A DNA stretch of 64,000 nt from Azolla caroliniana (lineage: Eukaryota > Plantae > Polypodiophyta). This document shows positions 9,932 through 34,017 of this stretch, piece after piece; within the stretch, counting starts at the first letter, position 1; every line of letters starts with the position of its first letter. The notes beneath the pieces were generated by a model. That model searched no databases. It was given only the letters and a program-made list of their open reading frames with translations, and had not been told where the DNA came from. Position numbers and translations under genes: made by a program. The stretch covers positions 16,492,001 through 16,556,000 of the forward strand of contig JBHGNT010000001.1 in assembly GCA_043228905.1 (NCBI GenBank), given 5' to 3'.

Positions 9932-10342
9932 TGTTGAGAAGCAAGCTCAACAAAGGTATGTGATGCTTATTGAGAAATAAGCTACAGTAGCTATTAGCTA
10001 ATTAGCTACTAGTGGACATAAAGGTGAAACAACTATTTAGTTATGAATAGCTATTTAGCTACTGGCAGCTAATTAGCTGCATATGTAAGTCACTTATAAC
10101 TTAGGTAAAATAGTAAGTGTAGTAAGTAGTAAGGAGAATAGAGAGAGTAATGCAGTGAGAGTAAGAACAGAAAAATAGAAAACAGACGAGAGCGAGTTGA
10201 GCTCTACGTGTGATGAAGTAGAAGCTTTTTGTACTGTGTAGAGGTAAGCCTCCTTCCCTTTCCCTTTCTTTCTTGAGCACTAAAAGATCCAACACATCAT
10301 GATCCGCTGTGCACACAGAAGAGCCGTAGCGCCTTTGTAACA
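9932..10342 (+). repeat. Copia-B 5' LTR
   Basis: tgttgagaagc...tgtaaca, followed by a tRNA-iMet-type PBS. Direct repeat of 32790-33236. Confidence 0.95.
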
Positions 10343-10469
10343 TGGTATCAAAGCTGAGTTGCTCATAAAGAAGATTAGAACAGTACAGATCTGAGAAAGG
10401 TTGGTGCTCTGCTTGCTGATCTGAATCGGAGAGAGAGTTGTCTGTGAAGTTAACCCTAGTTGAAAGAGA

Positions 10470-12082
10470 AAATGGCTACATAGAATGCAAGCCAAATAGT
10501 CACAGAGAAACTGGATAAAAACAATTTCCCGGCGTGGAAATTCAGAACGACAAACTTCCTTATGGGGAATGGATATTGGAATTATATTGAAGGAGACCTT
10601 GAAGAGGCTCCAAAGATCCCTGAAGAAAATGCATCTGCTGCTCAGATTAAAGCATTTAAGGAATGGAACCAAGGGGCAAGAAAGGTATTGCATTGGTTGT
10701 CACTTAGCATCAAAGATTTGATGCTTGGACACATACAGGATGCTATGCTTCCAAAAGAAGCTTGGGACAGTTTGGTAAAACTGTTTGCAATGAATACAAA
10801 GGCAAGAAAGCTCTAGTTGAAGACTAAGCTAAATACTCTGGAAAAAGGTAAGATGTCAGTGAATGAGTATGCTCTGAAAATAAAGAGCATATGTGAATCG
10901 CTTGCTTCTATCAATGTGAGGATAGAAGATGATGATAAGGTGGAAATATGCTTAAGAGGTTTAGGACCTCAATATAAAAGCTTCAAAACATCTATTCTCA
11001 CAAGGGATAGCATCCTAAGTTTTCCAGATCTGGTTTCAATGCTTGTAGTAGAGGAAAGAAATCAAATGGATGATGTAAAAAAAGGAAACACTGAGACTGA
11101 GGGGCAAGTCCTCTACAATAGTGCTGGAAGAGGCCGAGGAAGAGGCCATGGAAGATTTGGTTCAGCTAGAACCAACAACAATTATCAAGGAAGAGGACAA
11201 CATGTTGTAAGTGGAAGAAACAACATCAGAGGCAGGGGGAGCAATTGAGGAAAAGGTAAGCCAACCTAATTGAATGATGATGGTTGTTGGTATTGTGGAA
11301 AAACAGGCCACAGACAAGCTAAATGCTATAAAAAGAAAAATGATGAAAAAAGAGTGAAGAGATAGCAAAATAAATATGCCTCAACTAGTGAAGACTGTGA
11401 TAAAGATGGTGCATTTGTGATGCAACATGAAACCACAATAGTGGCTGAATGTTCACAAAGATGCAATGAAGAGTTTATGTGGTATGTAGATTCTGGGGCA
11501 TCTAATAATATGACAGGACATAAAAACTGGTTTGAAAGGTTAAGGGAATTAGAGATTTCTGGTTATGTACAGACAGGTGATAATACTACTCACCAAATAG
11601 AGCATTGTGGGAAGAAAAAGGAAAAACAAAGTATATGTTGAATGTTATGCATGTTCCAAACCTTGCAAAAAATTAGATTTCTGTTGGACAGATAGTAGAG
11701 CAAGGAATGCAAGTGAAGTTTAAGCAAAGTGGATCCTTCATAGAGAAAAATGGAAAGCTCATTGCAAAAGGAAAACGAGAAGGAAGGATGTTTGTGTTAG
11801 ATGTGGATATGCCTAGGAATATTACAACCATGTTTATAGAAGGTATGAGGGTAATCTCAGAAGTGGAAACGTGCCATAAAAGAATCGGTCACATAAGTAT
11901 GCAAACATTGAAAAATATGTTGAGGAAAGATGCAATGGCTGGGTTGCCTAAGCTCAAAGACTGTGACATGGGAAAAATATGTGAAGCATGTCAATATGGA
12001 AAACAAAACAGGTTGCCTTTCCCTCATGAAAGACATATAAGTAAGAATCTGTTGGATTTGGTACATACGGATGTATGGGGAC
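10470..12082 (+). pseudogene. Copia-B gag (UBN2, zinc knuckle), protease and integrase N-terminus
   Basis: ORFs 10562-10816, 10817-11248, 11417-11641 (WYVDSGASN) and 11707-12090 (CEACQYGK, HTDVWG), with stops. Start approximate. Confidence 0.88.
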
Positions 12083-12520
12083 TGTCATGATATGGCAAGA
12101 CTCGAACCCATGACCTTAGATTATATGGGTCGAGCTCTTGACTATTAGACCATCTATTGTAATACATAAGATATTATTTTCATTTACATTTTATTATAGG
12201 AAATTAGTGTATAATCTAGATTTCTCTGGAACACTCTAGAAGCTTCAGGATTACTCCTGAAAACGCTATAAAAGAGGGCACTAGGCATTATGTTGAACCA
12301 AATTGGTTCAACGCCAGTCTTAAGCCTTTTAGCCACCATTGTATATTCTCTTCATATAATACATATCTTTCTTATCATCACTCACTCTCTCTCTGGATCT
12401 CTCTCTCTCTCTCCCCGTCTCGCTCACTCCTTCCTTCTCTCGAAGAAGTTCTACACCTCTCATAGTACTAATCCTTCGTTTAGTACTAATTCATTCTCTG
12501 TCACAGTATTGTTCCTGACA

Positions 12521-12534
12521 GTTTGAACCAATTT
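12521..12534 (+). promoter_or_regulatory. Putative self-priming PBS of C1 (gtttgaaccaattt)
   Basis: Lies directly after the 5' LTR. ttgaaccaattt is the exact complement of aaattggttcaa at 12300-12311, about 30 nt downstream of the LTR TATA box (12268). Confidence 0.75.
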
Positions 12535-12593
12535 TTCTACCTTCTATCTCTCTCATTTCCTACTAATCTCTTATTCCTCTTTTCTTTCATCCC

Positions 12594-15500
12594 ATGGACA
12601 CTATTAGCGTTGAAGAATATCAATTTGTTTTCTCGGAATTTCAATGCGAAGTTCCATGCTTTGGAACAAGAAAACCAACGATTGCTGGGGGATCTTCAGC
12701 AAATCTCCTTAGAAAAGCAGCAAACGCAACAATAGCATGGGGAACTTGCGTTACGCGTGCAACAACTCGAAGCAACCATTGTAGCGATGCAACAACAAGG
12801 GCCCGGAACACAAGGGATTCATAAAGAACCCAAGCTTGGCCTTCCCACAAAGTTCCTTAACCAGGTATGATTAGTTATCCAAATGCATCCTTCCCGATAT
12901 CCCACCGATGCATCACGAGTGGGTTTAGTAGGCACTTTGTTAAGTGGCTAAGCGTTTCATGGTTCGCTCCACTATTAGAAAAGGAATCTCCGTTACTCAA
13001 CAATTTTGAAGAGTTTCTAGGTGAGTTTAAAGCATGTTTCGGAGATACTGACAGCATCAGGACCGCAATCAACAAAATTCGGCGATTACGCCAAGGTGAC
13101 CGTCCAGCCTCCGCATACGTTGCAGATTTTCGCCTACTCGCCGCCGATATCCCTTGGGATGATCAAGCGTTGATGGAGCAATTCCGTTATGGTTTACGCA
13201 ACGACGTCAAGGATTTACTCTTGAGCTTCCCCGAAGAGCCAAAGTCCTTAACAGAAGCAATTAGTCGCGCGGTGAGATGTGACAACCGCCTCTTTGAGCG
13301 ACGTTCGGAAAGACAGCTACAGATGCCGAGGCCAACATCAGAGCCCACCTACGCCTCAATGGTAGCAAGAACTTTTCCGAGGGAGTCATATAATGCGCCT
13401 CCAGCGAATACTCCGACTCCGATGGACATCTACACGTCGTCGAGGGCCATTATTCGAAGAAGAAAAGTAGCGACGCCGTACAAATCGACTATGTCTTTAC
13501 TGCGGTGGACCAGGACATATCACAATAAATTGCCCCCATAGGCTCGAAGACAGGTAAACCAAATAGTCACTAGTTCTAATTGTACTAAACCCGAGCCTAT
13601 TTCAGTAGGAATATCTGATAGTCTTAATAGTACTAATAGCCCAGATCTAGCGAACAAATTTGATGTCCTTAGTCAGTTAGAAGAAGAGTTAAACGACTAA
13701 GTCGAGCCAAAATAGGAGCCGTTTGGTTGGACAACCCTAGATCTGTGCAGCCCATTAGTGGTTCCATTCCCTCTAAGCAAGTTAGTGATGTGTTCGCAGC
13801 CCAAGTAATAGTTAGTACTAAAGGTACCCTTCCAGTACATGTCCTAGCACTCCTAGATTCCGGAGCTAACTCTTGCTTTATGGATAAGAAATTTTCTCAA
13901 GCTCATAAGATATCCCTAAGAAAATTCCAGTGTCCAGCCTCTATAGTAGTCATTGATGGACGTCCCATTGCTTCCGGAAATATCATAGAAGAGTCAGAGC
14001 CCATTAATATTGTCCTAGATAACTTAACATGTGTAGTATCATTTAATATTATTAGTATCCCAGAACATCCTATAGTTTTAGGATTACCGTGGTTCGAGTT
14101 ACATAACCCAGACATAGATTGGAGAACAAGAGAAATCCGGTGTCGACAAACCCAAGGGTCAACTCAGAAGATGGCAACCATTTCGCTACGTCAGTTGCGT
14201 AAAGAAGGGCGCGAGGAGGAAATGTTCCTCTTTGCAATATCAGGAAACCCCTCCAGCACTACTAAAGAAGAATCCACCGTTCAACTTCCCGAGAAGTATC
14301 GTCATTACGCCGATGTGTTCGATAAAGTACAAGCCAACACACTTCCTCATCATCGACCGTACGATTGCCCCATCGATTTACAATCGGGAAAAGAGACGCC
14401 ATGGGGACCTATCTACAATTTGTCACCAACCGAGCTAGAAGTTCTTCTGGCCTATATCGAGGAGAATTTGGAAAATGGTTTCATTTGACATTCGAAATCT
14501 CCAGCCGGCGCGCCCATTTTCTTCGTCAAGAAAAAAGATGGATCGCTTCGTCTCGTTGTAGATTACCGTGGCTTGAATAAGGTTACAATCAGGAATAGGT
14601 ATGCTCTTCCCCTTATCTCAAGTCTTTTAGAACGTATCAATGGTGCCAGGTTCTTCACGAAGGTCGACTTACGGGGAGGATATAACCTCGTACGGATCCG
14701 ACCAGGAGACGAATGGAAGACCGCGTTTCGCACCAGATATGGGCACTTCGAGTATACGGTCATGCCGTTCGGCCTCACTAATGCGCCGGCAGTTTTCCAG
14801 CACATGGCTAATGATATATTCCGAGATCTATTGGATGATTGTTTGATCATCTATTTGGATGATCTACTGGTTTATTCAAAGACCCAAGAAGAACATGATT
14901 CTCATGTACTATTAGTACTAAAACGACTTCGAGAACATGGTGTGTATGCAAAGCTGTAAAAATGTAGTTTCGGGTGCAACCAAGTGGAATTTCTCGGCTA
15001 CATCATTTCTTCAGAAGGCATCTCCATGGACCCAGCTAAGGTCAAAACGGTGGTAGAATGGCAGACTCCGCGTTCGGTGCGGGATGTGCAATGCTTCCTA
15101 GGCTTTGCCAATTTTTACCGGAAGTTCATACAAGATTACTCAAAGATCGTTCTACCTCTCACACAACTTACCAGGAAGGGACAACCGTTCATATGGTCTG
15201 AAGAAACGGACATGGCTTTCGAGAGTCTTAAAAAGGCATTTACATCGGCTCCAATTCTAGCTCATGTCGATCCGGAAAAAGCATTCATTATCGAAGCTGA
15301 TGCATCGGATTTTGCATTGGGGAGCATTCTGTCACAACAGGGGAATGATGAGAAGCTACATCTTGTGGCTTTTCACTCACGCAAGTTTGACGCCGCCGAA
15401 ATTAACTACGAAATTCATGATAAGGAGCTATTGGCAATAGTGGATTCTTTTATGCAATGGAGGCATTTTCTGGAGGGATCCTCTCATCCAGTCACCGTAT

Positions 15501-17284
15501 TTAGTGATCACAAGAATCTTGCCTACTTTCAAGATGCTCGTGTGTTGAATCGACGTCAAGCTCGGTGGGCCCACTTCCTGATGCGTTTCGACTTCAAAAT
15601 TACATATCGTCCGGGAAAGCACCAAGGGAAGGCAGATGCATTATCACGACGTTCGTATCTAGCACCCCGTCCCGGCGAGCTAGCTTTCGATAACCAAAAA
15701 CAAGTCATCTTGGGACCGGCACGACTACAAGTAACACAGATTTTTGACATGCCCATGGATTCCCGCGTTATCGATACCATACATGAAGACTTGAAGAAAA
15801 AAGCGTTCGCCCAAGCTATACTAGCACAAATTGATCCCTCTTGAGCGTCGTGTTCATAGTCGCAACCACCAGGTACGGACTATCGGCAATTCAAATACCA
15901 TGATGGATTACTCTTCTTTAAAGAACTTTTGTATGTTCCTAATGGTTCTTGCCGCCTTCGAGTAGTTCAAAACTGCCATGACACATATACAAGTGCGCAT
16001 TTTGGTAGTATTAAAACATTACATTTAGTACAACTACCATTCTGGTGGCCCTGTATGCGACAATTTGTCGAGGATTTTGTTCGGACTTGTGATACATGTT
16101 GCAGAGCGAAAATGCCAAGGCATCATCCATATGGTTTATTAGAACCATTACCAATTCCAAGCAAGCCGTGGCATTCCATTGCTCTAGACTTCATCACAGA
16201 TCTTCCAGTCTCTAAGGGGTTCAATGCGATTCTAACAGTGGTCGATCGATACACGAAGATGGCTCATTTCTTGCCATGTACTAAGGAGATCTCGAGTGAA
16301 GACACTGCCAAAATTGTCATGCGTGAAGTATGTCGGCATCATGGACTTCCCGATAGTATCATCAACGACCGTGGGCCCTAGTTCGTGTCAAAATTCTAGA
16401 AGCACCTTTTTAACATGCTCAAGGTCTCTTGTAACCTCTCCTCCGGCTACCACCCACAAACCAACGGCCAAGCTGAACGAACAAATCAAACGCTGGAGCA
16501 GTATCTGCGGTGCTTTCTTAGTTATCATCAGGACGACTGGGCAGATATTCTCCACTTCGCCGAATTTGCCTATAACAACTCTATCCACGCATCCACTAAA
16601 GTTACGCCATTTTATGCTTATACGGGATGTCACCCCCGGTGGAGTGTACTTGAAACCCCAGAGGTGTCCACAAATCCGTGCGCGGAGGATCGTTTGGAGC
16701 GGTTACGCAAGATACAAGCGGATTTATCTACTCATCTCCAGCAAGCTTAACAAACACACAAGGTCTACGTGGATCGTCATCGACTTCCATCCAGTTTTAA
16801 TATTGGAGATCGGGTGTGGCTGCTACGACGACACATCAAGACTACTTGCCCATGTGAGAAGTTGGATTATCGGCGATTAGGTCCTTTCCGTATTATTGGA
16901 CAGATTAATGATGTCACTTTTCGTCTCGATCTACCTCCTCAACTTCGGATACATCCGGTGTTTCATAGTTCTCTCCTCGAACCCTACCACGAGAGCACCA
17001 TCCCAAGACGTCTTATCCAACCTCCACCCCCCATCGAGCTTGAAGATGGGCCGGAGTACGAGGTTGCCGCCATCCTTGATTCCAAGATTGTTCGCAACAA
17101 GCTCTACTATCTAGTCGATTGGCTAGGCTATAGTCCCAACGAACGTACTTGGGAACCGATCGAGAATGTGACCAATACTCGTGCTCTTCTTGAAGACTTC
17201 CATCGTCAATATCCACACAAACCGGGTCCTCAATCCAAGACGACTCGTGACACTCGTCGTTTTAAAAGGGGGATAGTGTCATGA
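12594..17284 (+). pseudogene. C1 gag-pol with chromodomain, several stops and frameshifts
   Basis: ORFs 12867-13541, 13727-14488, 14573-14959, 14984-15844, 15929-16381, 16415-16750 and 16769-17284 tile gag-PR-RT-RH-INT-CHD. Confidence 0.92.
13688..13732 (+). promoter_or_regulatory. Putative -1 ribosomal frameshift signal (G UUA AAC + stem-loop) at the C1 gag/pol junction
   Basis: The gag stop taa is at 13698-13700 and pol is open in the -1 frame from 13673. A hairpin gtcgagccaaa..tttggttggac starts 6 nt after the heptamer. Confidence 0.7.
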
Positions 17285-18680
17285 TATGGCAAGACTCGAA
17301 CCCATGACCTTAGGTTATATGGGTCGAGCTCTTGACCATTAGACCATCTATTGTAATATGTAGGATATTATTTTCATTTACATTTTATTATAGGAAATTA
17401 GTGTATATTCCAGATTTCTCTGGAACATTCTAGAAGCTTCAGGATTACTTCTGAAAACACTATAAAAGAGGGCACTAGGCATTATGTTGAACCAAATTGG
17501 TTCAACGCCAGTCTTAAGCCTTTTAGCCACCATTGTATATTCTCTTCATATAATGCATATCTTTCTTATCATCACTCTCTCTCTCTCTCTCTCCCCGTCT
17601 CGCTCACTCCTTCCTTCTCTCGAAGAAGTTTTACACCTCTCATAGTGCTAATCCTTCGTTTAGTACTAATTCCTTCTCAGTCTCAGTACTGTTCTTGACA
17701 GCTACTCCATGAAATAGTTGCACTTCCCAATGTAAACATATATCCACTCGACTGGACCAAAGGGAATTGTTGGAACAAATATGGAGAAGGCAATGAAGAA
17801 AGCGAAAGAAATACAAACCGACACGGAAAGACACGACTAGTCAGATGACCGGGAACAAGGAACCAAAAGTACAACCAAATGGGCAGAACTCGCCGGAATG
17901 GCCGGACAACGGGCAAGAGTGGCCGGAGTGACTGGATAGCAGCCGAAGTGTCTAAGTGGCCGGACAACAGTCAGAGCGACCGTAGAGAGGTTGGAATGGC
18001 CGAATAACGGCCAAATAGCGGCTGAAGAGCAACTGGGCAACAGTCTGAGCGGTTGGAGAGCGGTCAGAAAGGCCGGAAACCAGTCGGAATAACCGGATGC
18101 AGACAGGCGGCCGGGACGACGGATCAGATGCAAGATCGAAAGACGACGGAAAACAATCGAACTGACAGCCGAAAAATCGACCGGAATGAGCCGGACTAAG
18201 ATGGCTCGAAGGCTAGAACACCGACAGAGACGGAGGAGAGGCCGGAGAGTGACCTAAGAGTGGTCGTAGTGGCCGAACAGCGCCAGAACGGAGGCGGCCG
18301 GACCAGACGATGCCGGACAACGACGAAGATGGAGACGGACAAACAGCGGGACGACGGCCAAACAGAGTCAAAGAGTGACAGAGATGATAGTCGAAATGTA
18401 TAGCCACGACAATGGCAACGGCAACGGCAACGACCAGATGATGGGACATTGACACCGAAAAGTGACGTAGCCGGCAACAGAGCCGCCGAAAAGCGAAGGA
18501 GACAATGACAACGACGGAGAGTAGGTCGACGAGCGGAGGAAGAAATGGCTTGAAACTACTGTTGGGATTTCGGTCCCTCCGGATGGGATGTCCGGAGATG
18601 AATGACGGCAAGCCCGGAGGCTGTTACGGAACCGTAGGATGAAGAGTACCCGGCATGAAGCCGGATGAAGAGTACCAGGT

Positions 18681-18778
18681 TACGGAGCCGGATGATGAAG
18701 ACCCCGGCTACGGAGCCGGATGCTGAAGACCCCGGCTACGGAGCCGGATGATGAAGACCCCGGCTACGGAGCCGGATG
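18681..18778 (+). repeat. 28-bp tandem repeat (tacggagccggatgatgaagaccccggc, ~3.5 copies) in the U3 of E; also in the E 3' LTR and both F LTRs
   Basis: Units start at 18681, 18709, 18737 and 18765. Confidence 0.95.
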
Positions 18779-19269
18779 ACGAATGTACCCGGAGAGAGAG
18801 ATCCGGATGCGGGGACATATTTGTGAATATGTTTGCCAAGAGCCCTTGAGGTTATATTTGTAAATAGCCCGAAAGTCATATGTGTATAAATATGACTTAG
18901 GGCAAACAGTTGATGTTGTTGCTTAATTTTCATGCGAAGTGAGAGCAGCCGAGAGAGAGAGAGAGAGAGAGACGAAGAGGTCGTTGCCTCTGTGTATTGC
19001 CGCCGCCTGTGGCGAAGACAGTGAGCTCAAGGTTGTTGCCTTGTAGCTTCACCAGTGTACATCCCTGTTCATAGTGATAGTTGGAGTTTGAGGCTCCCGT
19101 GGTTTTTCCCATTTAGGGTTTTCCACGTAAAACATCCAGTGTACCTTTCTCTCTATTGTCTTTCGTGCATTGTTGTATTTCCCGTTTTCTGTGAATCGAT
19201 CCTGTTCCTCGGTTGTGGCCGAGCACGGAATTTCAATAAAGTGGTATCAGAGCGACGATAACACAGAAG

Positions 19270-22200
19270 ATGGAAGGCGGCGGTAGCGGGCAGCCGGGAA
19301 TGATGGTGCTGAATGCGCAGAATTACGCCGACTGGAAGATCAAGATGGAGGATCTTCTGATTGTTCGGGACCTGTACGAACCGATTGACAGGTCGGAAAT
19401 ACCGAAGGGAGTACTTGAGTCGGAGTGGAAGCTCCTGAACCGGAAAGCAGTAGCGACGATCCGGCAATATGTCGATGTAAGTGTCCTGCAACATGTGGCG
19501 AACGATACGAACGCCTATGAGATGTGGAAGAAGCTGTCGGGCCTCTATGAGAGGAAGAATGCGTTGAACCGGACCTCCCTGATGAGAAAGATAGTGAACC
19601 TCAAGTACCGGGACGGCGAGAGTATGGTGGAACACGTAAGCACGTTCATGGGATTCGTGAACCAGCTTGCGGCGATCAAGTTCCCGTTGGAGGATGCAAT
19701 GCAAGCCATCATCCTGATGTGTACATTGCCGGACAGCTGGGAGAACTTGGTGGTGACTCTCAGCACCTCCTGCGCCGAAGATAACTTGTCCCTACAAACG
19801 GTAAAGACAAGTATTTTGAACGAAGAAGCGCGTCGGAGAGATAAAGAACCGGTCTCCGACTCGAAGGCGCTGCTTACCGAATCGGAACGGGGAAGACAAT
19901 GGAACCGGAGTCCGCAAAGACGGGAGAAGTCGGGGACCCGGTCGCAGTCAAGAGGAAGACCCACATGCTTCCACTGTGGGAAGCCGGGGCACTTCTGGAA
20001 GAATTGTCGGCATTACCGAAAAGACAACGGAGCCGACGACACCGATTCGAAGAAATCACCGGAGAGAAACGGTGCATACCGGGGAGCCACGGACCGGAGA
20101 GGTCCGGATCGGCGAGGGCAGGACCGGAAAGGAACGACGGCACTCGCGGCAAGTGAAGAAGAGATAATGCTTATTACCGAAGAGAGGGAGCTGAACCTTG
20201 CCGGTGTAGAGATGACCTGGGTGGTCGATTCCGGAGCGTCGTTCCACCTGACCCCGGAGAAGAAATACTTCTCATCCTACACAGCCGGTGAGCACGGCTG
20301 TGTCCGGATGGGAAATGAAGGTACGTGCCGGATAGCCGGCATAGGAGACGTGTGGCTGATGACATCAACCGGATGCAAGATGCTGCTGAAGGATGTGCGA
20401 CACGTTCCGGAGGTCCGATTGAACCTGATCTCGGCCGGGAGGCTAGATGATGAAGGCTACACGGGTAGCATCCGGAACGGTGTCATGAAGTTCAGCAAGG
20501 GGAGCCTGATCGTGGCTCGGGCCCGGAAGGTCAACACACTGTACCTGATGAATTCCCGGCTATGTCTGGAAGAGCTGAATGTGGCAGCCGACACTGCCGG
20601 TGAGCTGTGGCACAAAAGACTGTGCCACATGAGTGAGAAGGGGATGAAGAGGCTTGCAGAAGACAACCTCATTCCAGTGAAGCATGTGCACCTGGAGAAG
20701 TGCACCGACTGCCTGGCCGGTAAGCAAAACCGGACCTCCTTCCACTCAAGGCCACCGACGAGACGTAGCGCACCATTGGAGTTGGTGCACACCGATGTGT
20801 GTCAGGTAGAAACGAAGTCGCATGGCGGAGCCCAGTACTTCGTAACATTCATTGATGATCACAGCCGGAAGCTGTGGACGGCACCGTTGAAGACAAAGGA
20901 CCAAGTATTGTCCGTCTTCAAAGAACTCCACGCGAGAGTGGAAAGGGAATCCGGCAAGAAGCTGAAAGCGATACGAGCGGATAACGGAGGGGAATACCGG
21001 GGGCAGTTCCAGGAGTACTGTCGCTCGAAGGGAATCCGGCTCGAGTTTACTGTGCCGAAGACGCCGGAACTAAACGGGCTGGCCGAGAGGATGAACCGGA
21101 CCATAATGGAGAGGGTCCGGAGTATGCTGGCGCATGCGAAATTACCCAAGGGGTTTTGGGCTGAGGCAATGTCGACGGCGACATACGTGATAAACAGATC
21201 ACCCTCAGTACCTTTGGACGGAGACACGCCGCAGAAAGTGTGGACCGGTAAGGAAGTGTCCTACCGGCATCTGAAGGTGTTCGGGTGTCTCGCATACGTG
21301 CATGTGGCAAAGGACCGGAGAGGAAAGCTAGATCCAAAGACCCGGCCATGCATATTCCTCGGTTACGGCGACGACGAGTTCGGCTACCGAGTATGGGACC
21401 CGGTCGACAAGAAGATATTCAGGAGTCGAGATATCATTTTCATGGAGGACAAGACGCTCGCCGACTGGGAGTCGGAGAAGAAGATGAAGAGCTCCAAGTC
21501 GACCGGTGAGGATAAACTCTACGAGGAGCAGTCCCGACCGGCAAGGGACCGGTTAACACTCGAAGACCCGGCCGAAGACGGTGAAGAAACAGAACCGGCC
21601 GAAGAAGATGAAAATGATACCGGAACCGGCCCCGATCCCGAAATGGATTCGGATGAAGAAGAAGAATCGGAAGAACCGGTTACCGAAGCTCCCGAACGGA
21701 GATATCCTCTAAGAGAGAGAAGGGCCCCCCGGAGATTTCCGGAACCAGAGCACGTGCTGCTAACCGACGAGGGGGAGCCGGAGAGCTTTGAAGAAGCAAA
21801 GCACGACACCCAGAGCCGCAGGTGGTTAAGTGCCATGCAGGAGGAGATGGATTCCCTGCATGAGAACCACACATATGAACTTGTGGAGTTGCCGAAAGGA
21901 AAGCGGGCACTTCGAAACAAGTGGGTGTTCAAGCTGAAACCGGGAGATGCCGGAAACCCCCAGAGATACAAAGCCAGGATCGTGGTGAAGGGGTTCCAGC
22001 AGAAGAAGGGCGTCGACTTCGACGAGATATTTGCCCCGGTAGTGAAGATGACCTCTATCCGGACGGTGCTGAGCATAGCGGCAAGCATGGACCTCGAGGT
22101 AGAACAGATGGACGTGAAGACGGCATTCCTTCACGGTGACCTCGATGAAGAGATCTACATGCAGCAACCGGAAGGATTCGAGAAGAAAGGGAAGGAGCAC

Positions 22201-23346: not shown

Positions 23347-25459
23347 AGGGGGAGTTTGTTGGGATTTCGGTCCCTCCGGATGGGATGTCCGGAGATGAAT
23401 GACGGCAAGCCCGGAGGCTGTTACGGAACCGTAGGATGAAGAGTACCCGGCATGAAGCCGGATGAAGAGTACCAGGTTACGGAGCCGGATGATGAAGACC
23501 CCGGCTACGGAGCCGGATGCTGAAGACCCCGGCTACGGAGCCGGATGATGAAGACCCCGGCTACGGAGCCGGATGACGAATGTACCCGGAGAGAGAGATC
23601 CGGATGCGGGGACATATTTGTGAATATGTTTGCCAAGAGCCCTTGAGGTTATATTTGTAAATAGCCCGAAAGTCATATGTGTATAAATATGACTTAGGGC
23701 AAACAGTTGATGTTGTTGCTTAATTTTCATGCGAAGTGAGAGCAGCCGAGAGAGAGAGAGAGAGAGAGACGAAGAGGTCGTTGCCTCTGTGTATTGCCGC
23801 CGCCTGTGGCGAAGACAGTGAGCTCAAGGTTGTTGCCTTGTAGCTTCACCAGTGTACATCCCTGTTCATAGTGATAGTTGGAGTTTGAGGCTCCCGTGGT
23901 TTTTCCCATTTAGGGTTTTCCACGTAAAACATCCAGTGTACCTTTCTCTCTATTGTCTTTCGTGCATTGTTGTATTTCCCGTTTTCTGTGAATCGATCCT
24001 GTTCCTCGGTTGTGGCCGAGCACGGAATTTCAATAACTACACAGAAGAAGAAGAAGAAGAAACAGAGGGGAGAAAGAGAAAACAAGATGAGCATGAACTA
24101 AGACAAATAGACAGAGATCAAATAGATTGGAAGAGGATGAAGAGGAAGATAGAAGCCTTTCTCTTGAAGAGAAGAAAGCTAACGAATCGCAAGAAGGCGG
24201 GAAGAAGAGAAAGATGCAGACAACGGCAAGAGAGAAACGTAAGAAGCAGGAAAAGGACAAACTGAACAAAGAAGGAAAGGAAAAAGACCTAATGCAAATT
24301 AATAAATAAATAAATAAAATAGGAAAAAGAGAGGGAAAAGGAGGACAATAAGGAGCATTTAAGGAATTTTAAAAATCAAAGGGCACCTACAGAATTTCGA
24401 AAACTCATTAACCTAAAAGAAATGAACGTGATCCACACACAACTCACAAAATACAAAGAAGAACACACATACATACAACGGTTTTTTTGATGACCCGAAT
24501 GATGTCACCGAAGTTTGTAAGCCGACAGAATGAGAATGTTTGTGTCGCGGACGATTTGCTGACGGACAAAGATGTTCGAGTCAAGCATTCCGATCGAGGG
24601 AGTCGATCGTTGAAAGGACCGATGGAAGTTTCGGTCGAAGAAATATCATCATCAAGGCATGTGGGATTGACGTGCAAGGCACTTTCCCACGGGCGTGCCA
24701 TATTGTGTTACCCATTATAGGGAGCAGGAGGCGGACACGGTTTGGATCATCAAGCAGTTGAAGGAAGAGTGACAAGCCGCAGAAAATAAATCACAGATGG
24801 GAGCTGAACGGATCCAGTGCATCCTCTGGTCATGGCTCACTAAGACCAAAAGCTTGATTGATGACAGCTCTATGCGTTGGTGGGAAAAATGGGCGCAGAA
24901 TACCGCGGAACTCCAATTGCTTAGGGCGAACGTTGAAAACCGGCGAAAGGAGGGTGACGACTAATATATGCTGACCTCGGAGGACTTCACCACCATCAAG
25001 GATGAGCTGGCGGAAGATTTCACAGCCCTGGCGGATGAACAATTGGTGTAGGTCCGGTAGCTCGCTCGTAGCTCAACTGGACGATGATTGGTTGGAGGCT
25101 CAAATCCAGTTCGAAAGCTATGAGCGGTCCCGGCTCCGAGAAGAAAAAGCGCGAAAGATAGCAACGGTCAACCTTAGTGATGAGGAACCATCGCCGGTGC
25201 AAAGAACGGAGGGGGAATAGGCCGGGGTCAGTCAGCCACAGACAACTCTGACGAACCAACGACAGAAACGTCGGTGTCAGAGTGACAAACGGAGCCACAG
25301 CCACAAACAGAACAACAACAGCAACCACAACAGCAACAACAGATTCTCGACGAGCCATTGGAAATTTTGGAGCAAAGCATTCTGGACATTTTGGACGAAG
25401 CGTAAAAGGGCCGGATAGTGGGTTCAACGTACAAGGCACTGTCCCACAGGCGTGCCATG

Positions 25460-25916
25460 TGTTACCGTCCGGCAAAGAAGGCTTAAGGAGGTCCAAACCA
25501 GAGTGTGAAAGGAATAGTTATTCGGGAACTGTGGTAATTAGTAGTCTTAATATATACATATTATTATATAAAAAGATGTGGACGGATGGACCGGAATCGG
25601 TATGCCGATCCGGATCCGGAATGATTCCGTAAAGGTGCCGGTTGGCACCGTTTTGTATTTCACACCGGAAACCTATATAAAGGCCCGATTACAATGTAAT
25701 CAAGGACGGATAATTAATAAAGTTTATTGTCTTAATCTTCCAGTGTTGATTACCGTTCTATATTCATTGTTATATCTTACGCGTGTTAATTACGGATGGC
25801 TAAGTAATCGATTAAGGTCTAAGTAAGCGTTGTGACGTAAGTCATTCTGCCGTACCACCCTTTGGTGATGTGTCTTAAGTGGACACCTTGTGTTAGGCTG
25901 TTGTTCGGCCCTAGCA
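25460..25916 (+). repeat. LTR of D (inferred 3' LTR)
   Basis: tgttacc...ctagca termini, cctatataaagg near 25672, homology to 34035-34426. Copia-B integrase begins right after it. Confidence 0.8.
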
Positions 25917-26726
25917 ATAATAGATGGTCCAGTACATTCCATTGATGTGGAACTTTGTTGTCCAACATTCCTTCCATCTCCGTGGTTATCTCCTACATTT
26001 TCAGATTTTTTCTCTGTTTTCATTTTCACAGTTTTCATCAGTTTTGACATTCTGTTTTGGGATGTACCATTTGCCCAACTCATCAAATATCACATCCCGA
26101 CTTACCACAATCTTTTTTTTCACATGGTTATAGCATCTATACCCTTTTTGCTCCTCTGAATATCCAACAAAAACACATTTTTCAGCCTTTGGATCCAGCT
26201 TACTTCTCACTTTAGCAGGTACATGAACATAAACAAGGCATCCAAATAGTTTTAAGTGTCCTGAGCTAGGTTTCCTTCCATAGAAACATTCTTTAGGAGT
26301 TACTTCATGTACCCTAGATGTTATACATCTATTTAGAATATAATTAGTTGTGTTTACATCTTATGCCCAGTAATACCATGGCATATATTTTTCAGTCATC
26401 ATAGCCCTTGCTATGTTCACCAAAGTTCTGGTTTTTCTTTCAGCAACTCCATTTTGTTATGGAGTATATCTACATGTGAATTGTCTTCTTATTTCTTGAT
26501 TGCATAAAAAAAAAAGAATTCATTGGAGAAATATTCTCCTCCATCAGATCTTAGACATTTTATTCTTGTTCTGGCTTGTTTTTCTACCATACCTTTGAAC
26601 TTCCGGAAGCAATTAAATATTTCACTTTTTTCTTTCATGAAGTACACCCATGTTTTCCTTGAGCAATCATCAATAAATGTTACATAAAATGTGCAGCTAC
26701 CAATAGATGCATTTTTTGTTGGTCCC
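25917..26726 (-). pseudogene. Inverted Copia-B integrase core and SH3 region
   Basis: The minus strand reads PTKNASIGSCTFYVTFIDD, continuing HTDVWG at 12082, and later RSKLDPKAEKCVFVGY (ORF 26001-26210). Confidence 0.92.
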
Positions 26727-29700
26727 TGTCAGGAACAGTACTGAGACAGAGAAGGAATTAGTACTAAACGAAGGATTAGTACTATGAGAGGTGTAGAACT
26801 TCTTCGAGAGAAGGAAGGAGTGAGCGAGACGGGGAGAGAGAGAGAGAGATCTCGAGAGAGAGAGTGAGTGATGATAAGAAAGATATGTATTATATGAAGA
26901 GAATATACAATGGTGGCTAAAAGGCTTAAGACTGGCGTTGAACCAATTTGGTTCAACATAATGCCTAGTGCCCTCTTTTATAGTCTTTTCAGGAGTAATC
27001 CTGAAGCTTCTAGAATGTTCCAGAGAAATCTGGAATATACACTAATTTCCTATAATAAAATGTAAATGAAAATAATATCCTACATATTACAATAGATGGT
27101 CTAATGGTCAAGAGCTTGACCCATATAACCTAAGGTCATGGGTTCGAGTCTTGCCATATCATGACACTATCCCCCCTTTAAAATGACGAGTGTCACGAGT
27201 CGTCTTGGATTGAGGACCCGGTTTGTGTGGATATTGATGATGGAAGTCTTCAAGAAGAGCACGAGCATTGGTCACATTCTCGATCGGTTCCCAAGTACGT
27301 TCGTTGGGACTATAGCCTAGCCAATCGACTAGATAGTAGAGCTTGTTGCGAACAATCTTGGAATCAAGGATGGCGGCAACCTCGTACTTCGGCCCATCTT
27401 CAAGCTCGATGGGGGGTGGAGGTTGGATAAGACGTCTTGGGATGGTGCTCTCGTGGTAGGGTTCGAGGAGAGAACTATGAAACACCGGATGTATCCGAAG
27501 TTGAGGAGGTAGATCGAGACGAAAAGCGACATCATTAATCTGTCCAATAATACGGAAAGGACCTAATCGCCGATAATCCAACTTCTCACATGGGCGAGTA
27601 GTCTTGATGTGTCGTCGTAGCAGCCACACCCAATCTCCAATATTAAAACTGGATGGAAGTCGATGACGATCCGGGTAGACCTTGTGTGTTTGTTGAGCTT
27701 GCTGGAGATGAGTAGATAAATCCCCTTGTATCTTGCGTAACCGCTCCAACCGATCCTCCGCGCAAGGATTTGTGGACACCTCTGGGGTTTCAAGTACACT
27801 CCACCGGGGGTGACATCCCGTATAAGCATAAAAAACTTTAGTGGATGCGTGGATAGAGTTGTTATAGGCAAATTCGGCGAAGTGGAGAATATCTGCCCAG
27901 TCGTCCTGATGATAACTGAGAAAGCACCGCAGATACTGCTCTAGCGTTTGATTTGTTCGTTCAGTTTGGCCGTCGAATTGTGGGTGGTAGCCGAAGGAGA
28001 GGTTACAAGAGACCTTGAGCATGTTAAAAAGGTGCTTCCAGAATTTTGACATGAACTAGGGTCCACGGTCGTTGATGATACTATTGGGAAGTCCATGATG
28101 CCGACATACTTCATGCATGACAATTTCGGCAGTGTCTTCATTGGAGATCTCCTTAGTACATGGCAAGAAATGAGCCATCTTCGTGTATCGATCGACCACC
28201 GTTAGAATCACATTGACCCCCTTAGAGACTGGAAGATCTGTGATGAAGTCTAGAGCAATGGATTGCCATGGCTTGCTTGGAATTGGTAATGGCATTTTCG
28301 CTCTGCAACATGTATCACAAGTCCGAACAAAATCCTCGACAAATTGTCGCATACAGGGCCACCAGAATGATCGTTGTACTAAATGTAATGTTTTAGTACT
28401 ACCAAAATGCCCAGTTGTATATGTGTCATGGCAGTTTTGAACTACTCGAAGGCGGCAAGAACCATTAGGAACATACAAAAGTTCTTTAAAGAAGAGTAAT
28501 CCATCATGGTATTTGAATTGCCGATAGTTCGTACCTGGTAGTTGCGACTGTGAACACGACGCTCGAGAGGGATCAATTTGTGCTAGTATAGCTTGGGCGA
28601 ACGCATCTGTCTTCAAGTCTTCACGTATGGTATCGATAACGCGGGAATCCATGGGCATGTCAAAAATCTATGTTACTTGTAGTCGTGCCGGTCCCAAGGT
28701 GACTTGTTTTTGGTTATCGAAAGCTAGCTCGCCGGGACGGGGTGCTAGATACGAACGTCGTGATAATGCATCTGCCTTCCCTTAGTGCTTCCCCAGACAA
28801 TATGTAATTTTGAAGTCGAAACGCGTCAGGAAGTGGGCCCACCGAGCTTGACGTCGATTTAACACACGAGCATCTTGAAAGTAGGCAAGATTCTTGTGAT
28901 CACTAAATACGGTGACTGGATGAGAGGATCCCTCCAGAAAATGCCTCCATTGCATAAAAGAATCCACTATTGCCAATAGCTCCTTATCATGAATTTCGTA
29001 GTTAATTTCGGCGGCGTCAAACTTGCGTGAGTGAAAAGCCACAAGATGTAGCTTCTCATCATTCCCCTGTTGTGACAGAATGCTCCCCAATGCAAAATCT
29101 GATGCGTCAGCTTCGATAATGAATGCTTTTTCCGGATCGACATGAGCTAGAATTGGAGCCGATGTAAATGCCTTTTTAAGACTCTCGAAAGCCATGTCCG
29201 TTTCTTCAGACCATATGAACGGTTGTCCCTTCCTGGTAAGTTGTGTGAGAGGTAGAACGATCTTTGAGTAATCTTGTATGAACTTCTGGTAAAAATTGGC
29301 AAAGCCTAGGAAGCATTGCACATCCCGCACCGAACGCGGAGTCTGCCATTCTACCACTGTTTTGACTTGAGTTGGGTCCATGGAGATGCCTTCTGAAGAA
29401 ATGATGTAGCCGAGAAATTCCACTTGGTTGCACCCGAAACTACATTTTTACAGCTTTGCATACACACCATGTTCTCGAAGTCGTTTTAGTACTAATAGTA
29501 CATGTGAATCATGTTCTTCTTGGGTCTTTGAATAAACCAGTAGATCATCCAAATAGATGATCAAACAATCATCCAATAGAACTCGGAATATATCATTAGC
29601 CATGTGCTAGAAGACTGCCGGCGCATTAGTGAGGCCGAACGGCATGACGGTATACTCGAAGTGCCCATATCTGGTGCGAAACGCGGTCTTCCATTCGTCT

Positions 29701-32346
29701 CCTGGTCGGATCCGTACGAGGTTATATGCTCCCCGTAAGTCGACCTTCGTGAAGAACCTGGCACCATTGATCCGTTCTAAAAGACTTGAGATAAGGGGAA
29801 GAGCATATTCCTGATTGTAACCTTATTCAAGCCACGGTAATCTACAACGAGACAAAGCGATCCATCATTTTTCTTGACGAAGAAAATGGGCGCGCCGGCT
29901 GGAGATTTCGAATGTCGAATGAAACCATTTTCCAAATTCTCCTTGATATAGGCCCGAAGGATTTCCAGCTCGGTTGGTGACAAATTGTAGATCGGTCCCC
30001 ATGGCGGCTCTTTTCCCGGTTGTAAATCGATGGGGCAATCGATGTGGTGGCTTGTACTTTATCGAACACATCGGCGTAATGACGATACTTCTCGGGAAGT
30101 TGAACGGTGGATTCTTCTTTAGTGGTGCTGGAGGGGTTTACTGATATTGCAAAGAGGAACATTTCCTCCTCGCGCCCTTCTTTACGCAACTGATGTAGCG
30201 AAATGGTTGCCATCTTCTGAGTTGACCCTTGGGTTTGTCGACACCGGATTTCTCTTGTTCTCCAATCTATGTCTGGGTTATGTAACTCGAACCACGGTAA
30301 TCCTAAAACTATAGGATGTTTTGGGATACTAATAATATTAAATGATACTACACATGCTAAGTTATCTAGGACAATATTAATGGACTCTGACTCTTCTATG
30401 ATATTTCCGGAAGCAATGGGACGTCCATCAATGACTACTATAGAGGCTGGACACTGGAATTTTCTTAGGGATATCTTATGAGCTTGAGCAAATTTCTTAT
30501 CCATAAAGCAAGAGTTAGCTCCGGAATCTAGGAGTGCTAGGACATGTACTGGAGGGGTACTTTTAGTACTAACTATTACTTGGGCTACGAACACATCACT
30601 AACTTGCTTAGAGGGAATGGAACCACTAATGGGCTGCACAGATCTAGTGCTGTCCAACCAAACGGCTCCTATTTTGGCTCGACTTAGTTGTTTAACTCTT
30701 CTTCTAACTGACTAAGGACATCAAATTTGTTCGCTAGATCTGGGCTATTAGTACTATTAAGACTATCAGATATTCCTACTGAAATAGGCTCGGGTTTAGT
30801 ACAATTAGAACTAGAGACTATTTGGTTTACCTGTCTTCGAGGCCTATGGGGGCAATTTATGGCGATATGTCCTGGTCCACCGCAGTAAAGCCATAGTCGA
30901 TTTGTACGGCGTCGCTGCTTTTCTTCTTCGTATAATGGCCCTCGACGACGTGTAGGGTCAATCTCCATCGGAGTCGGAGTATTCGCTGGAGGCGCATTAT
31001 ATGACTCCCTCGGAAAAGGTCTTGCTACCACTGAGGCGTAGGTGGGCTCTGATCTTGGCTTCGGCATCTGTAGCTATCTTTCCAAACGTCGCTCAAAGAG
31101 GCGGTTGTCACATCTCACCGCGCAAATGATTGCTTCTGTTAAGGACTTTGACTCTTCGGGGAAGCTCAAGAGTAAATCCTTGACGTCGTTGCGTAAACCA
31201 TAATGGAATTGCTCCATCAATGCTTGATCATCCCAAGGGATATCGGCGGCGAGTAGGCAAAAATCTGCAGCGTATGCGGAGGCTGGACGGTCACCTTGGC
31301 GTAATCGCCGAATTTTGTTGATTGCGGTCCTGATGCTGTCAGTATCTCCGAAACATGCTTTAAACTCACCTAGAAACTCTTCAAAATTGTTGAGTAACGG
31401 AGATTCCTTTTCTAATAGTGGAGGGAACCATGACAACGCTGAGCCACTTAACAAAGTGCCTACTAAACCCACTCGTGATGCATCGGTGGGATATCGGGAA
31501 GGATGCATTTGGATAAATAATTGTACCTGGTTAAGGAACCCTCTAAACTGCGATCATGTTCCATCGAACTTCGTGGGAAGGCCAATCTTGGGTTCTTTAT
31601 GAATTCCTTGTGTTCCAGGCCCTTGTTGTTGCATTGCTACGATGGTTGCTTCGAGTTGTTGCACGCGTAATGCAAGTTCCCCATGTTGTTGTTGCGTTTG
31701 CTGCTTTTCTAAGGAGATTTGCTGAAGATCCCCCAGCAATCGTTGGTTTTCTTGTTCCAAAGCATGGAACTTCTCTTTCAAGCATTGAAATTCTGAGAAA
31801 ACAGATTGATATTCTTCAGTGCTAACAGTGGCCATGGGATGAAAGAAAAGAGGAATAAGAGATTAGTAGGAAATGAGAGAGATAGAAGGTAGAGAAATTG
31901 GTTCAAACTGTCTGGAACAGTACTGAGACAGAGAAGGAATTAGTACTAAACGAAGGATTAGTACTATGAGAGGTGTAGAACTTCGGAGAGAGAAGGAAGG
32001 AGTGAGCGAGACGGGGGGAGAGAGAGAGAGAGAGCGAGAGAGAGTGAGTGATGATAAGAAAGATATGTATTATATGAAGAAAATATACAATGGTGGCTAA
32101 AAGGCTTAAGACTGGCGTTGAACCAATTTGGTTCAACATAATGCCTAGTGCCCTCTTTTATAGTGTTTTCAGGAGTAATCCTGAAGCTTCTAGAATGTTC
32201 CAGAGAAATCTGGAATATACACTAATTTCCTATAATAAAATGTAAATGAAAATAATATGCTACGTACTACAATAGATGGTCTAATGGTCAAGAGCTCGAC
32301 CCATATAACCTAAGGTCATGGGTTCGAGTCTTGCCATATCATGACA
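26727..32346 (-). mobile_element. C2: chromovirus closely related to C1, opposite orientation, degenerate
   Basis: LTRs 26727-27166 and 31909-32346, self-priming-type PBS 31895-31908, ORFs 31554-31835, 31074-31508, 30684-31067, 29842-30657, 28782-29423, 28056-28658 and 27159-28052 (chromodomain). Confidence 0.95.
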
Positions 32347-32789
32347 GTAGCAAGAAACAAGATACTGTTGTATTGTCAAGTACTAAAGCTGAGTATAAAG
32401 GAGCTGCGATAGCTACTTGTGAAGAGGTATAGATTAGAAGATTTCTTTTTGATTTGGGAGAATATATAGATGGTGTTGTCACAATTTCGTGTGACAATAT
32501 GAGCAGCATTCAACTGGCAAACAACCTAGTGTTCCATGCAAGAACAAAGCACATCGAAGTGCATTATCACTTTGTTAGAGAAAAAGTGATTGATGGAGAA
32601 GTGGATCTGTTGTATGTAAGTACAAATAAGCAAGTGGCTGATATTCTTACGAAGGGATTGAGCATGGAAAAACATACACAGTTTACAGACATGATGGGAG
32701 TTATAACCATCGGCATGGTAGCTGAAAAGCATGAAGAAAAGAAGATTGAACATGATCCAAAGAAAGGATAAGTTGAGCTTGGGGGGGAG

Positions 32790-33236
32790 TGTTGAGAAGC
32801 AAGCTCAACAAAGGTATGTGATGCTTATTGAGAAATAAGCTATAGTAGCTATTAACTAATTAGCTACTAGTGGACATAAAGGTGAAACAACTATTTAGCT
32901 ACTGACAACTATTTAGCTACTGACAACTATTTAGCTACTGACAACTAATTAGCTACTGGCAACTAATTAGCTGCATATGTAAGTCTCTTATAACTTAGGT
33001 AAAATAGTAAGTGTAGTAAGTAGTAAGGAGAATAGAGAGAGTAGTGCAGAGAGAGTAAGAACAAAAAAACAGAAAACAGACGAGAGCGAGTTGAGCTCTA
33101 CGTGTAATGAAGTAGAAGCTTTTTGGACTATGCAGAGGTAAGCCTCCTTCCCTTTCCCTTTTTGTCTTGAGCACTGAACGATCCAGTACATCATGATCCG
33201 CTGTGCACACAAAAGAGCCGTAGCACCTTCGTAACA
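32790..33236 (+). repeat. Copia-B 3' LTR with an expanded 18-bp repeat
   Basis: Direct repeat of 9932-10342 but 36 bp longer. gacaactatttagctact-type units at ~32887-32975. Confidence 0.95.
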
Positions 33237-34017
33237 CGCCGGTTCCTCTAATGTCATGCCGAATTCTGCAATTTTTGACCGTTTGGCTTCCAGTTCTGTT
33301 AGCCTTTGGGACACATGATTGACTTCCCATGTTTGTAGGAACGCATAGACGTGCGCCTCCACGTCAGGGTCATCACGGTACTTCGGATACGGGTATGGCA
33401 TGGTGCAGTCATCAAAAGGTTGTACCGGAGATGTGTGGTCTTGTTCTTGCTCTGCAGGTGGTGTTGGTGTGTGGTTTTCCGCTTTCTCCGTGGGTGGTGT
33501 TGATGTGCGTTCTCTTACTTTCTCCATGGTTGGTGTCAGTGTGCTTTTGGTCTTGTTTGGAGATTGCCGCTCTCCGGATACCAAGGGTAATTCCTCCGTT
33601 GGTTCTTGTGTCGATGAGCTGTCCGATTCATCATCCTCCGGATCGTCCGGAGTATCGTGGCTGCTTTTGTAATTCAACTGAACGCTCTATTCACTATCTG
33701 ATTCTGACTCCAAGGCCGAGAATGCCTTCGAGTCTCCGTTGCCTTTGGCAAGCGTCCGTAGTCTCGATTCTGCCTTTTGCAGACTCATCAGGCTATTGCC
33801 CTCGTCGGAAAGTTGTTGTTTTCGGAACCGAAGTGCTTCTTCCGCGACCCTCCGAAGCACTCTAGGAAAAGACCGATCCTGTCAGATCACCTCGGCCGCT
33901 TGTTGGAAGGTTTCCCACCTTTGATGTCTTTCGGCTAGTCTTCTTCCTCGTTCGGTGAATTGGTCGTTAGTTGGTCGAGAAATCCATCCCACGGTGTTCT
34001 CTGCTCATTGTAGGAAT

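What the first reader, a model, noticed from the sequence alone, without database searches (positions are those of the whole stretch)
12078..32351. Inversion by ectopic recombination between two oppositely oriented chromoviruses, shown by swapped TSDs
Seen: C1 is flanked by gggac (12078-12082) and gctac (17701-17705). C2 is flanked by gtccc (26722-26726, reverse complement of gggac) and gtagc (32347-32351, reverse complement of gctac). Copia-B integrase HTDVWG continues on the minus strand at 26726, and RNase H LGSATISWSS (minus, ~17730-17701) continues on the plus strand as KKQDTVV after 32347. The LTRs at 12083 and 26727 share a gatct interruption in the CT tract that the other two lack. Inference: two same-family insertions in opposite orientation recombined, inverting at least 17701-26726 and making C1 and C2 reciprocal chimeras.
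Basis: partly seen in the sequence, partly recalled or inferred. Interest (0 to 1): 0.7.

Follow-up and report, generated by a model that had tools for sequence, protein, structure and literature searches.

The report
Retrotransposon pair flipped 9 kb
Two dead copies of one jumping gene face each other inside an older jumping gene, with their insertion footprints swapped and the 9 kb between them turned around in the assembled sequence, likely because the two copies recombined; this is a clean but ordinary example of a well-known rearrangement.

Summary
The core observation is confirmed. Two 5.6-kb Tcn1-like chromoviruses (C1 +, C2 -) carry exchanged 5-bp TSDs. Their host copia, whose LTRs and TSD are collinear, changes strand at both junctions, and two independent paralogs abut across them. 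The 9,026 bp between them are inverted in this assembly.

The closest LTR pair is 17277/26727 (8 of 424), not the predicted pairs (15 differences each), and GATCT is uninformative. No crossover point was located.

New here: C1 and C2 share 15 alleles that most family contigs lack, including a premature RT stop. They were therefore likely homogenised by gene conversion, or came from one defective parent.

Best reading: ectopic recombination (0.80). Rivals are crossed co-integration of sibling cDNAs (0.08) and an assembly mis-join (0.07). No spanning reads were available.

The signature is textbook (Galileo, PMC2775673), only transposon DNA moved, and this scan has reported the same kind of event in other genomes.

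The parts
9927..9931 (+). Left TSD (CGCCG) of the host copia element
   Evidence: matches 33237-33241
9932..10342 (+). Host copia 5' LTR, followed by a TGGTATCA primer-binding site
   Evidence: 27 substitutions in 411 aligned columns against the 3' LTR (6.6%)
10343..12082 (+). Host copia gag to start of integrase (degenerate), ending in TSD copy GGGAC 12078-12082
   Evidence: tblastn 10460-11611; paralog 49570-49662 maps to 11989-12081
12083..17700 (+). C1: Tcn1-like chromovirus, 5618 bp; LTRs 12083-12520 and 17277-17700; 7 stop codons in its pol frame; 5 internal deletions at 12647-13542
   Evidence: (gag, protease, RT, RNase H, integrase, chromodomain E=1.2e-14)
12523..12534 (+). Predicted self-priming site of C1: 12-nt complement of LTR 12300-12311, which starts 33 nt after the start of a TATAAAA box; no tRNA-type TGG site
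   Evidence: same in C2
14957..14959 (+). Premature stop in RT shared by C1 and C2 (C2 29448-29450, minus); C3 and at least 99.9% of laid family depth read a sense codon
17701..26726 (-). Inverted segment, 9026 bp, bounded by TSD copies GCTAC (17701-17705) and GTCCC (26722-26726)
17701..17751 (-). Start of host copia RNase H, inverted
   Evidence: paralog 2464-2514 maps to 17751-17701
17752..25920 (.). Foreign insert E (limits approximate; about 2.7 kb without D1) standing where the host copia RT is missing; LTR-like end near 25550-25910
18560..24035 (+). D1: young intact copia nested in E; identical 679-bp LTRs, TSD ACTAC, one 1368-aa ORF
25921..26726 (-). Host copia integrase core, SH3 region and linker, inverted (lower limit approximate)
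   Evidence: paralog 49660-50352 maps to 26725-26037
26727..32346 (-). C2: Tcn1-like chromovirus, 5620 bp; 3' LTR 26727-27166, 5' LTR 31909-32346; 4 internal deletions at 27834-30043
   Evidence: (chromodomain E=2.5e-14)
32347..32789 (+). TSD copy GTAGC 32347-32351, then rest of host copia RNase H and polypurine tract
   Evidence: (paralog 2509-2871 maps to 32346-32708)
32790..33241 (+). Host copia 3' LTR (32790-33236) and right TSD CGCCG (33237-33241)
34427..39219 (-). C3: more distant truncated family member (13% from C1 and C2), used as outgroup only

Best explanation
Two copies of a chromovirus retrotransposon sit in opposite orientation inside an older copia element with exchanged target-site duplications and an inverted 9-kb interval, most likely because the two copies recombined with each other on the same chromosome. 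Shown: two separate 5-bp integration footprints, crossed; a host element that changes strand at both; host LTRs and outer TSD unchanged; neutral decay of both copies. Inferred steps: (1) copy A inserted into the host integrase gene (TSD GGGAC) on the + strand and copy B into the host RNase H gene (TSD GTAGC) on the - strand; (2) homologous repair paired the inverted 5.6-kb repeats and one crossover flipped the interval, so C1 would be A 5' + B 3' and C2 would be B 5' + A 3'; (3) the same pairing, once or repeatedly, likely copied sequence between the arms (gene conversion), which would explain the rare alleles they share and the higher divergence of their outer 5' 800 bp. The crossover site is not located. 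The event has no evident function: only transposon DNA moved, and the host copia is dead in either orientation because its RT region is missing.
For: Crossed TSDs, chance about 3e-6. Two paralog rulers abut across both junctions with a strand change. A family contig in run X2 matches 26582-26726 with 145 of its 162 letters and stops matching exactly at the TSD end, as a paralogous empty site would (table 8; its last 17 letters are not shown). Host LTRs are on one strand with a matching CGCCG TSD. Order of ages fits: host LTRs 6.6%, C LTR pairs 1.9-5.3% and C1/C2 3.0%, D1 0%. Signs of exchange between the arms: 13 of 35 places where at least 92% of family depth differs from C1 are shared with C2, 22 are C1-private; 6 of the 13 displayed C2 rows are shared; 15 places in all, 12536-16901. 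C3 has the family letter at 10 of the 11 shared places it covers. One shared allele is a transversion to a stop in RT. The 5' 768 columns differ at 5.1%, the other 4791 at 2.7% (changepoint 12875, permutation P=0.01). The signature (opposite orientation, exchanged TSDs) is the published test for ectopic recombination (PMC2775673, passages).
Against: Chimerism is not shown. LTR distances do not give the predicted pairing and C3-polarised substitutions show no switch. Under whole-arm conversion the two inner LTRs should share about 4-5 derived sites; 1 is seen (P about 0.05-0.11). The shared alleles are spread, not clustered; the best low-divergence block is almost the whole element (12883-17617, P=0.044). 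5 of 11 shared pol alleles are synonymous against 22 of 95 private ones (Fisher P=0.14), which leaves room for a common active parent. No read or contig spans either repeat. Logan contigs drop rare variants, so the rarity of the shared alleles may be overstated.
Confidence: 0.8

Rival explanations
1. Crossed co-integration. Two sibling cDNAs from one defective parent integrated at the same time a few kb apart, with their ends paired across molecules (one end of each cDNA at each site). This would invert the interval and swap the TSDs at the moment of insertion, with no crossover and non-chimeric copies.
For: C1/C2 divergence (3.0%) is no greater than LTR-pair divergence (3.4-4.2%), so the copies were nearly identical and of one age. 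The four LTRs form a star with one 2:2 substitution. Shared rare alleles are spread along the element. No chimeric switch was found.
Against: It needs a defective parent mobilised in trans (1 solid and 1 weaker shared stop), two cDNAs reaching one locus and mispaired integrase complexes. The one search aimed at it listed no paper holding the term 'half-site integration' among 15 shown of 299. It does not explain the excess divergence of the 5' 800 bp (P=0.01). GATCT, if it is a gain, pairs 12083 with 26727. Sibling copies that inserted normally and recombined later give the same data more simply.
Confidence: 0.08
2. Assembly mis-join. The true chromosome has matched TSDs, and the assembler oriented the middle segment wrongly through the two inverted 5.6-kb repeats.
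For: An interval between inverted repeats is the classic orientation ambiguity (general knowledge). No spanning read was available: the best run held 0.32 of the sampled words, and all 16 runs listed were contigs. No genome is held for cross-checks.
Against: The copies are resolved as distinct along their whole length: 168 substitutions, 10 indels, longest identical run 239 bp. Family contigs support 4 of 5 C1 deletions and 4 of 4 C2 deletions as copy-specific. The window has no N and passes D1's identical 679-bp LTRs, which points to long reads (inference). Shared and private alleles lie 2-3 bp apart (15580/15582, 16519/16522), which cross-polishing by mixed reads would not give.
Confidence: 0.07
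3. No homologous crossover. Breaks inside both elements were joined by end-joining or template switching and gave the same crossed layout.
For: Nine internal deletions show an ordered pattern: five in C1 (12647-13542), then four in C2 (C1-equivalent 14342-16604); P=0.035 for at most one switch, post hoc, and 0.09 if the LTR microsatellite gap is included.
Against: Both copies are full length and collinear end to end, with no reciprocal duplication or deletion at one aligned point. End-joining would need two breaks at matching positions.
Confidence: 0.03
4. No inversion. Each element has an ordinary TSD that has mutated.
For: GGGAC/GCTAC and GTCCC/GTAGC each match at 3 of 5 positions.
Against: It needs four substitutions that happen to give two exact reverse complements, and it cannot explain the strand change of the host copia at both junctions.
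Confidence: 0.01

Closest known systems
Galileo-mediated inversion 2z3 (and 2j, 2q7) of Drosophila buzzatii; Delprat et al. 2009, PMC2775673 (passages read)
   Same: Two copies of one transposon family in opposite orientation at the breakpoints, with exchanged TSDs.
   Different: There the copies are DNA transposons, the inversion is chromosomal, non-inverted chromosomes were examined and chimerism was shown (crossover in 141 bp). Here: LTR retrotransposons, 9 kb of transposon-only DNA, no ancestral haplotype, chimerism not shown.
Ty-mediated inversions in yeast and LINE/SINE-mediated inversions in primates (as cited in the introduction of PMC2775673; primary papers not read)
   Same: Inversion by non-allelic homologous recombination between inverted retroelement copies.
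   Different: Here both copies are nested in one older retrotransposon, whose split reading frame and outer TSD give an internal reference for the ancestral order.
Saccharomyces chromosome XIV flip/flop region; Salzberg et al. 2022, PMC9731477 (abstract and outline only)
   Same: An interval flanked by roughly 4-5 kb inverted repeats whose arms were homogenised.
   Different: Those arms are maintained genes, near-identical and re-inverting. Here the arms are dead, 3% diverged, and homogenisation is only inferred.
Chromovirus clade Tcn1 (Tf1/Sushi group); Neumann et al. 2019, PMC6317226 (passages read)
   Same: Gypsy domain order with C-terminal chromodomain, aromatic residues in the chromodomain, no tRNA primer site but a predicted self-priming site, 5-bp TSD.
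   Different: No phylogeny against Tcn1 references was made, so the clade name rests on these features only.

Membership tests
TE-mediated inversion by ectopic recombination (criteria of PMC2775673) | Two homologous TE copies in opposite orientation at the breakpoints | tested here: met
   C1(+) and C2(-), 3.0% substitutions
TE-mediated inversion by ectopic recombination (criteria of PMC2775673) | Exchanged target-site duplications | tested here: met
   each 5-mer is single in paralogous reading
TE-mediated inversion by ectopic recombination (criteria of PMC2775673) | Interval inverted relative to the ancestral order | tested here: met
   two paralog rulers; host LTRs and TSD; ancestral order inferred from the host element, not from another haplotype
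TE-mediated inversion by ectopic recombination (criteria of PMC2775673) | Both copies chimeric, with a locatable crossover | tested here: inconclusive
   LTR star; no substitution switch; deletion polarity hints at 13542-14342, P=0.035 post hoc
TE-mediated inversion by ectopic recombination (criteria of PMC2775673) | Arrangement exists in the chromosome (spanning reads or non-inverted haplotypes) | not testable with these tools
   only short contigs available, none spanning; no genome held
Chromovirus (Ty3/gypsy) | gag-PR-RT-RH-INT order with a C-terminal chromodomain, LTRs, PPT | tested here: met
   PF03732, RVP_2, RVT_1 in C1, RT_RNaseH, Integrase_H2C2, Chromo in C1 and C2; PPT
Chromovirus clade Tcn1 | No tRNA primer site; predicted self-priming | tested here: met
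   12-nt complement between the site after the 5' LTR and LTR position 218, both copies; criterion from PMC6317226. No tRNA search was run; absence of a TGG site read by eye
Chromovirus clade Tcn1 | Chromodomain with aromatic cage motif | tested here: met
   C1 chromodomain shows Y..W..Y at the cage positions (positions recalled, not aligned to a reference); the motif also occurs in Chlamyvir and Galadriel
Chromovirus clade Tcn1 | RT-RH-INT phylogeny groups with Tcn1 and Tf1/Sushi | not tested
   no reference sequences were fetched

The most novel reading that the evidence does not exclude
Two sibling cDNAs from one stop-codon-bearing parent integrated together a few kb apart with their ends crossed, so that retrotransposon integration itself, not later recombination, created the inversion and the swapped TSDs. 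Some 'swapped TSD' inversions credited to ectopic recombination would then be products of paired integration.
Probability: 0.08. Interest if true: 0.65.

Novelty: new member of a known kind. Interest (0 to 1): 0.27.

Why it matters
Modestly. It is a well-documented small instance of repeat-driven inversion in nested retrotransposon DNA, probably of a non-seed plant (inferred from the Tcn1-type features). It moves no host gene. Two practical points follow. Structure-based annotators would call C1 and C2 full-length elements with mismatched TSDs and date them from LTR pairs that likely never belonged together. And the rare alleles shared by the two arms suggest that neighbouring inverted copies exchange sequence over kilobases, which would distort family trees and insertion ages. 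If crossed co-integration were true it would weaken swapped TSDs as proof of ectopic recombination for LTR elements.

Tried and rejected
2. GATCT as a marker: equally parsimonious under both pairings if it was ancestral; none of the displayed contig rows showed its family state.
3. SNP switch point: with two reciprocal chimeras the pairwise alignment is symmetric, so an outgroup is needed; C3 gave 40:44 with no switch.
4. Short conversion tract: longest identical run 239 bp, P=0.065. The block 13546-15546 is low (41 of 1978) and richer in shared alleles (6:3 against 7:19, Fisher P=0.05, post hoc), but the formal scan chose nearly the whole element. Not claimed.
5. Insert E as a solo LTR with mismatched TSD: dropped, because the host frame runs on past the supposed end at 25961.
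6. Second shared stop at 16379 as firm evidence: down-weighted; it is a transition at a CAG codon, and C1 and C3 share another such stop at 15857, so parallel change occurs.
7. Whole genome: none held.
8. Spanning reads: 16 runs listed, none with half the words, all contigs; 5 of 16 were laid (X1-X5), and none spans a repeat. I drew nothing about habitat or source from them.
9. In one search only 40 difference rows were shown (506 hidden) and 13 lay in C2; the other 27 were not used. In one search all 35 rows were shown and used, but the 93% likeness filter loses clustered differences.
10. Literature: 7 searches. I saw no title or abstract start describing a swapped-TSD inversion between plant LTR retrotransposons, and the wheat paper's passages (PMC7156093) describe none. 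The library is partial, so this is no claim of absence. No supplements were read.
11. Earlier notes near this place: none. Three notes from this genome concern other features and were not used.
Full report
Observation. C1 (12083-17700, +) and C2 (26727-32346, -) are full-length inverted copies with 168 substitutions in 5559 aligned columns and 10 indels. The outer-left 5-mer is the reverse complement of the inner-right one, and the inner-left of the outer-right. Two random host 5-mers match with P=0.00185, so the double match has a chance of about 3e-6.

The elements. Pfam finds gag, protease, RT (C1), RNase H, integrase and a C-terminal chromodomain in the C copies. Both copies have a polypurine tract. 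After the 5' LTR both have a 12-nt complement of LTR position 218, 33 nt from the start of a TATA box, in place of a tRNA site. These features fit the Tcn1 clade of non-seed plants as described in PMC6317226 (passages); self-priming in the Tf1/sushi group is also described in 10.1101/2022.12.06.519325 (passages). No tree was made. Both copies are dead: C1 has 7 stops in its pol frame, and the 95 C1/C2 differences in pol are 22 synonymous, 65 missense and 8 involving a stop, as in neutral decay.

The host and the inversion. Both copies lie in one older copia element whose LTRs (9932-10342, 32790-33236) are on the + strand, differ at 27 of 411 columns and are flanked by a matching CGCCG. Two independent copia paralogs in the window serve as rulers. 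One maps 49570-49662 to 11989-12081(+) and 49660-49881 to 26725-26504(-). The other maps 2464-2514 to 17751-17701(-) and 2509-2871 to 32346-32708(+). So the host changes strand at both junctions with no gap, and each 5-mer is a true duplication. The assembled order gives no continuous frame when either element is removed. A family contig in run X2 matches 26582-26726 and stops matching at the TSD end, as a paralogous empty site would. The inverted interval is 9026 bp, or 3545 bp without the young copia D1. It also holds a foreign insert where the host RT region is missing, so the host is dead in either orientation.

Tests of chimerism. The predicted LTR pairing was not found. Differences are 15 of 438 (12083/26727) and 15 of 424 (17277/31909) for the predicted pairs, 18 of 424 and 15 of 438 for the assembled pairs, 8 of 424 for the two inner LTRs and 23 of 438 for the two outer ones. 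Only one substitution splits the four LTRs two against two, and it joins the inner pair. GATCT is shared by 12083 and 26727, but 17277 has a 16-bp deletion there. Polarising with C3 gave 40 C1-private, 44 C2-private and 6 unresolved sites with no switch. The only hint is in the deletions: five in C1 (12647-13542), then four in C2 (equivalent to 14342-16604). Family contigs support 8 of these 9 as copy-specific. If one parent carried all nine, the crossover lies at 13542-14342; P=0.035 post hoc, 0.09 with the microsatellite gap, and substitutions do not follow the pattern. I do not claim a crossover site.

An extra finding. Public contigs of the family show where nearly all copies differ from C1 or C2. 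Of 35 such places in C1, 13 are shared with C2 and 22 are private. Of the 13 displayed C2 rows, 6 are shared (506 rows hidden). The union is 15 places from 12536 to 16901. C3 has the family letter at 10 of the 11 it covers. One shared allele is a premature RT stop made by a transversion, read otherwise by at least 99.99% of depth in all four runs. A second shared stop at 16379 is weaker, since parallel change at such codons is seen. Contigs drop rare variants and these runs need not be the assembled individual, so rarity may be overstated. Still, C1 and C2 are far closer kin than random family members. Either the arms exchanged sequence after insertion, or they are siblings from one defective parent. 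For conversion: the outer 5' 768 columns differ at 5.1% and the rest at 2.7% (P=0.01), and the shared stop. Against: 1 shared site in the inner LTRs where about 4-5 are expected (P 0.05-0.11), and 5 of 11 shared pol alleles synonymous (P=0.14 against private ones). I put conversion slightly ahead (about 55:45, my judgement).

Mechanism. Most likely (0.80): two integrations in opposite orientation, then one intrachromosomal crossover between the 5.6-kb arms, probably with conversion. Crossed co-integration of two sibling cDNAs gives the same footprints without chimerism and is not excluded (0.08). A mis-join is unlikely (0.07): the longest identical run is 239 bp, the window has no N, and shared and private alleles lie 2-3 bp apart. 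It remains untested, because only short contigs were available and no genome is held. Relative order: host copia (6.6%), then the C copies (about 3-4%), then D1 (0%); the inversion follows the C insertions and cannot be placed relative to D1.

Comparison. Opposite orientation, exchanged TSDs and chimeric copies are the published criteria for inversion by ectopic recombination (PMC2775673, passages); the first two are met here and the third is inconclusive. Homogenised inverted arms around an invertible segment are known from yeast (PMC9731477, abstract and outline). Seven literature searches showed no listing for this signature in plant LTR retrotransposons, which is no proof of absence. This scan's own unchecked notes describe the same kind of event in other genomes.

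Verdict. Real in the assembly and very probably in the chromosome; a new member of a known kind; interest 0.27.

Noticed in passing
window 18560-24035 (+) and 54004-59446 (-): A second pair of same-family copia elements in opposite orientation (D1, D2; 96% protein identity, intact 1368- and 1374-codon frames, LTRs 100% and 99.85% identical). Each has its own matched TSD (ACTAC; GAATC), so this pair is not swapped. D1's LTRs both end in TA, not CA. A young, probably recently active family.
   Followed up: partly
window 17752-25920: The host copia lacks its RT region (about residues 758-1245 in D1 numbering). An unrelated insert stands there; its left end lies only about 50 bp from the 17701 TSD. 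Probably an insertion followed by a deletion; no TSD found.
   Followed up: partly
window 12647-13542 and 27834-30043: Nine internal deletions are ordered: all five C1 deletions lie in its 5' part and all four C2 deletions in its 3' part, with no matching bias in substitutions. Unexplained; P=0.035 post hoc.
   Followed up: partly
window 34427-39219 (-): Third chromovirus C3, 13% diverged; its 3' LTR is cut after about 42 bp by another LTR element that begins near 34426 on the minus strand. It shares a stop at the 15857-equivalent codon with C1, probably by parallel mutation.
   Followed up: partly
window 12300-12311 and 12523-12534: Tf1-type self-priming signature: the site after the 5' LTR is the 12-nt complement of a stretch just downstream of the TATA box, inside a near-palindrome in the LTR.
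   Followed up: partly
window 42987-46582: A 3.6-kb LTR element (LTRs 88% alike) with a gag-like frame and no pol hit in its two ORFs; its flanks read GGTAT and AGTAC, not a clean TSD.
   Followed up: no
window 47868-48208: Two tandem copies of a roughly 170-bp unit, 93% alike.
   Followed up: no
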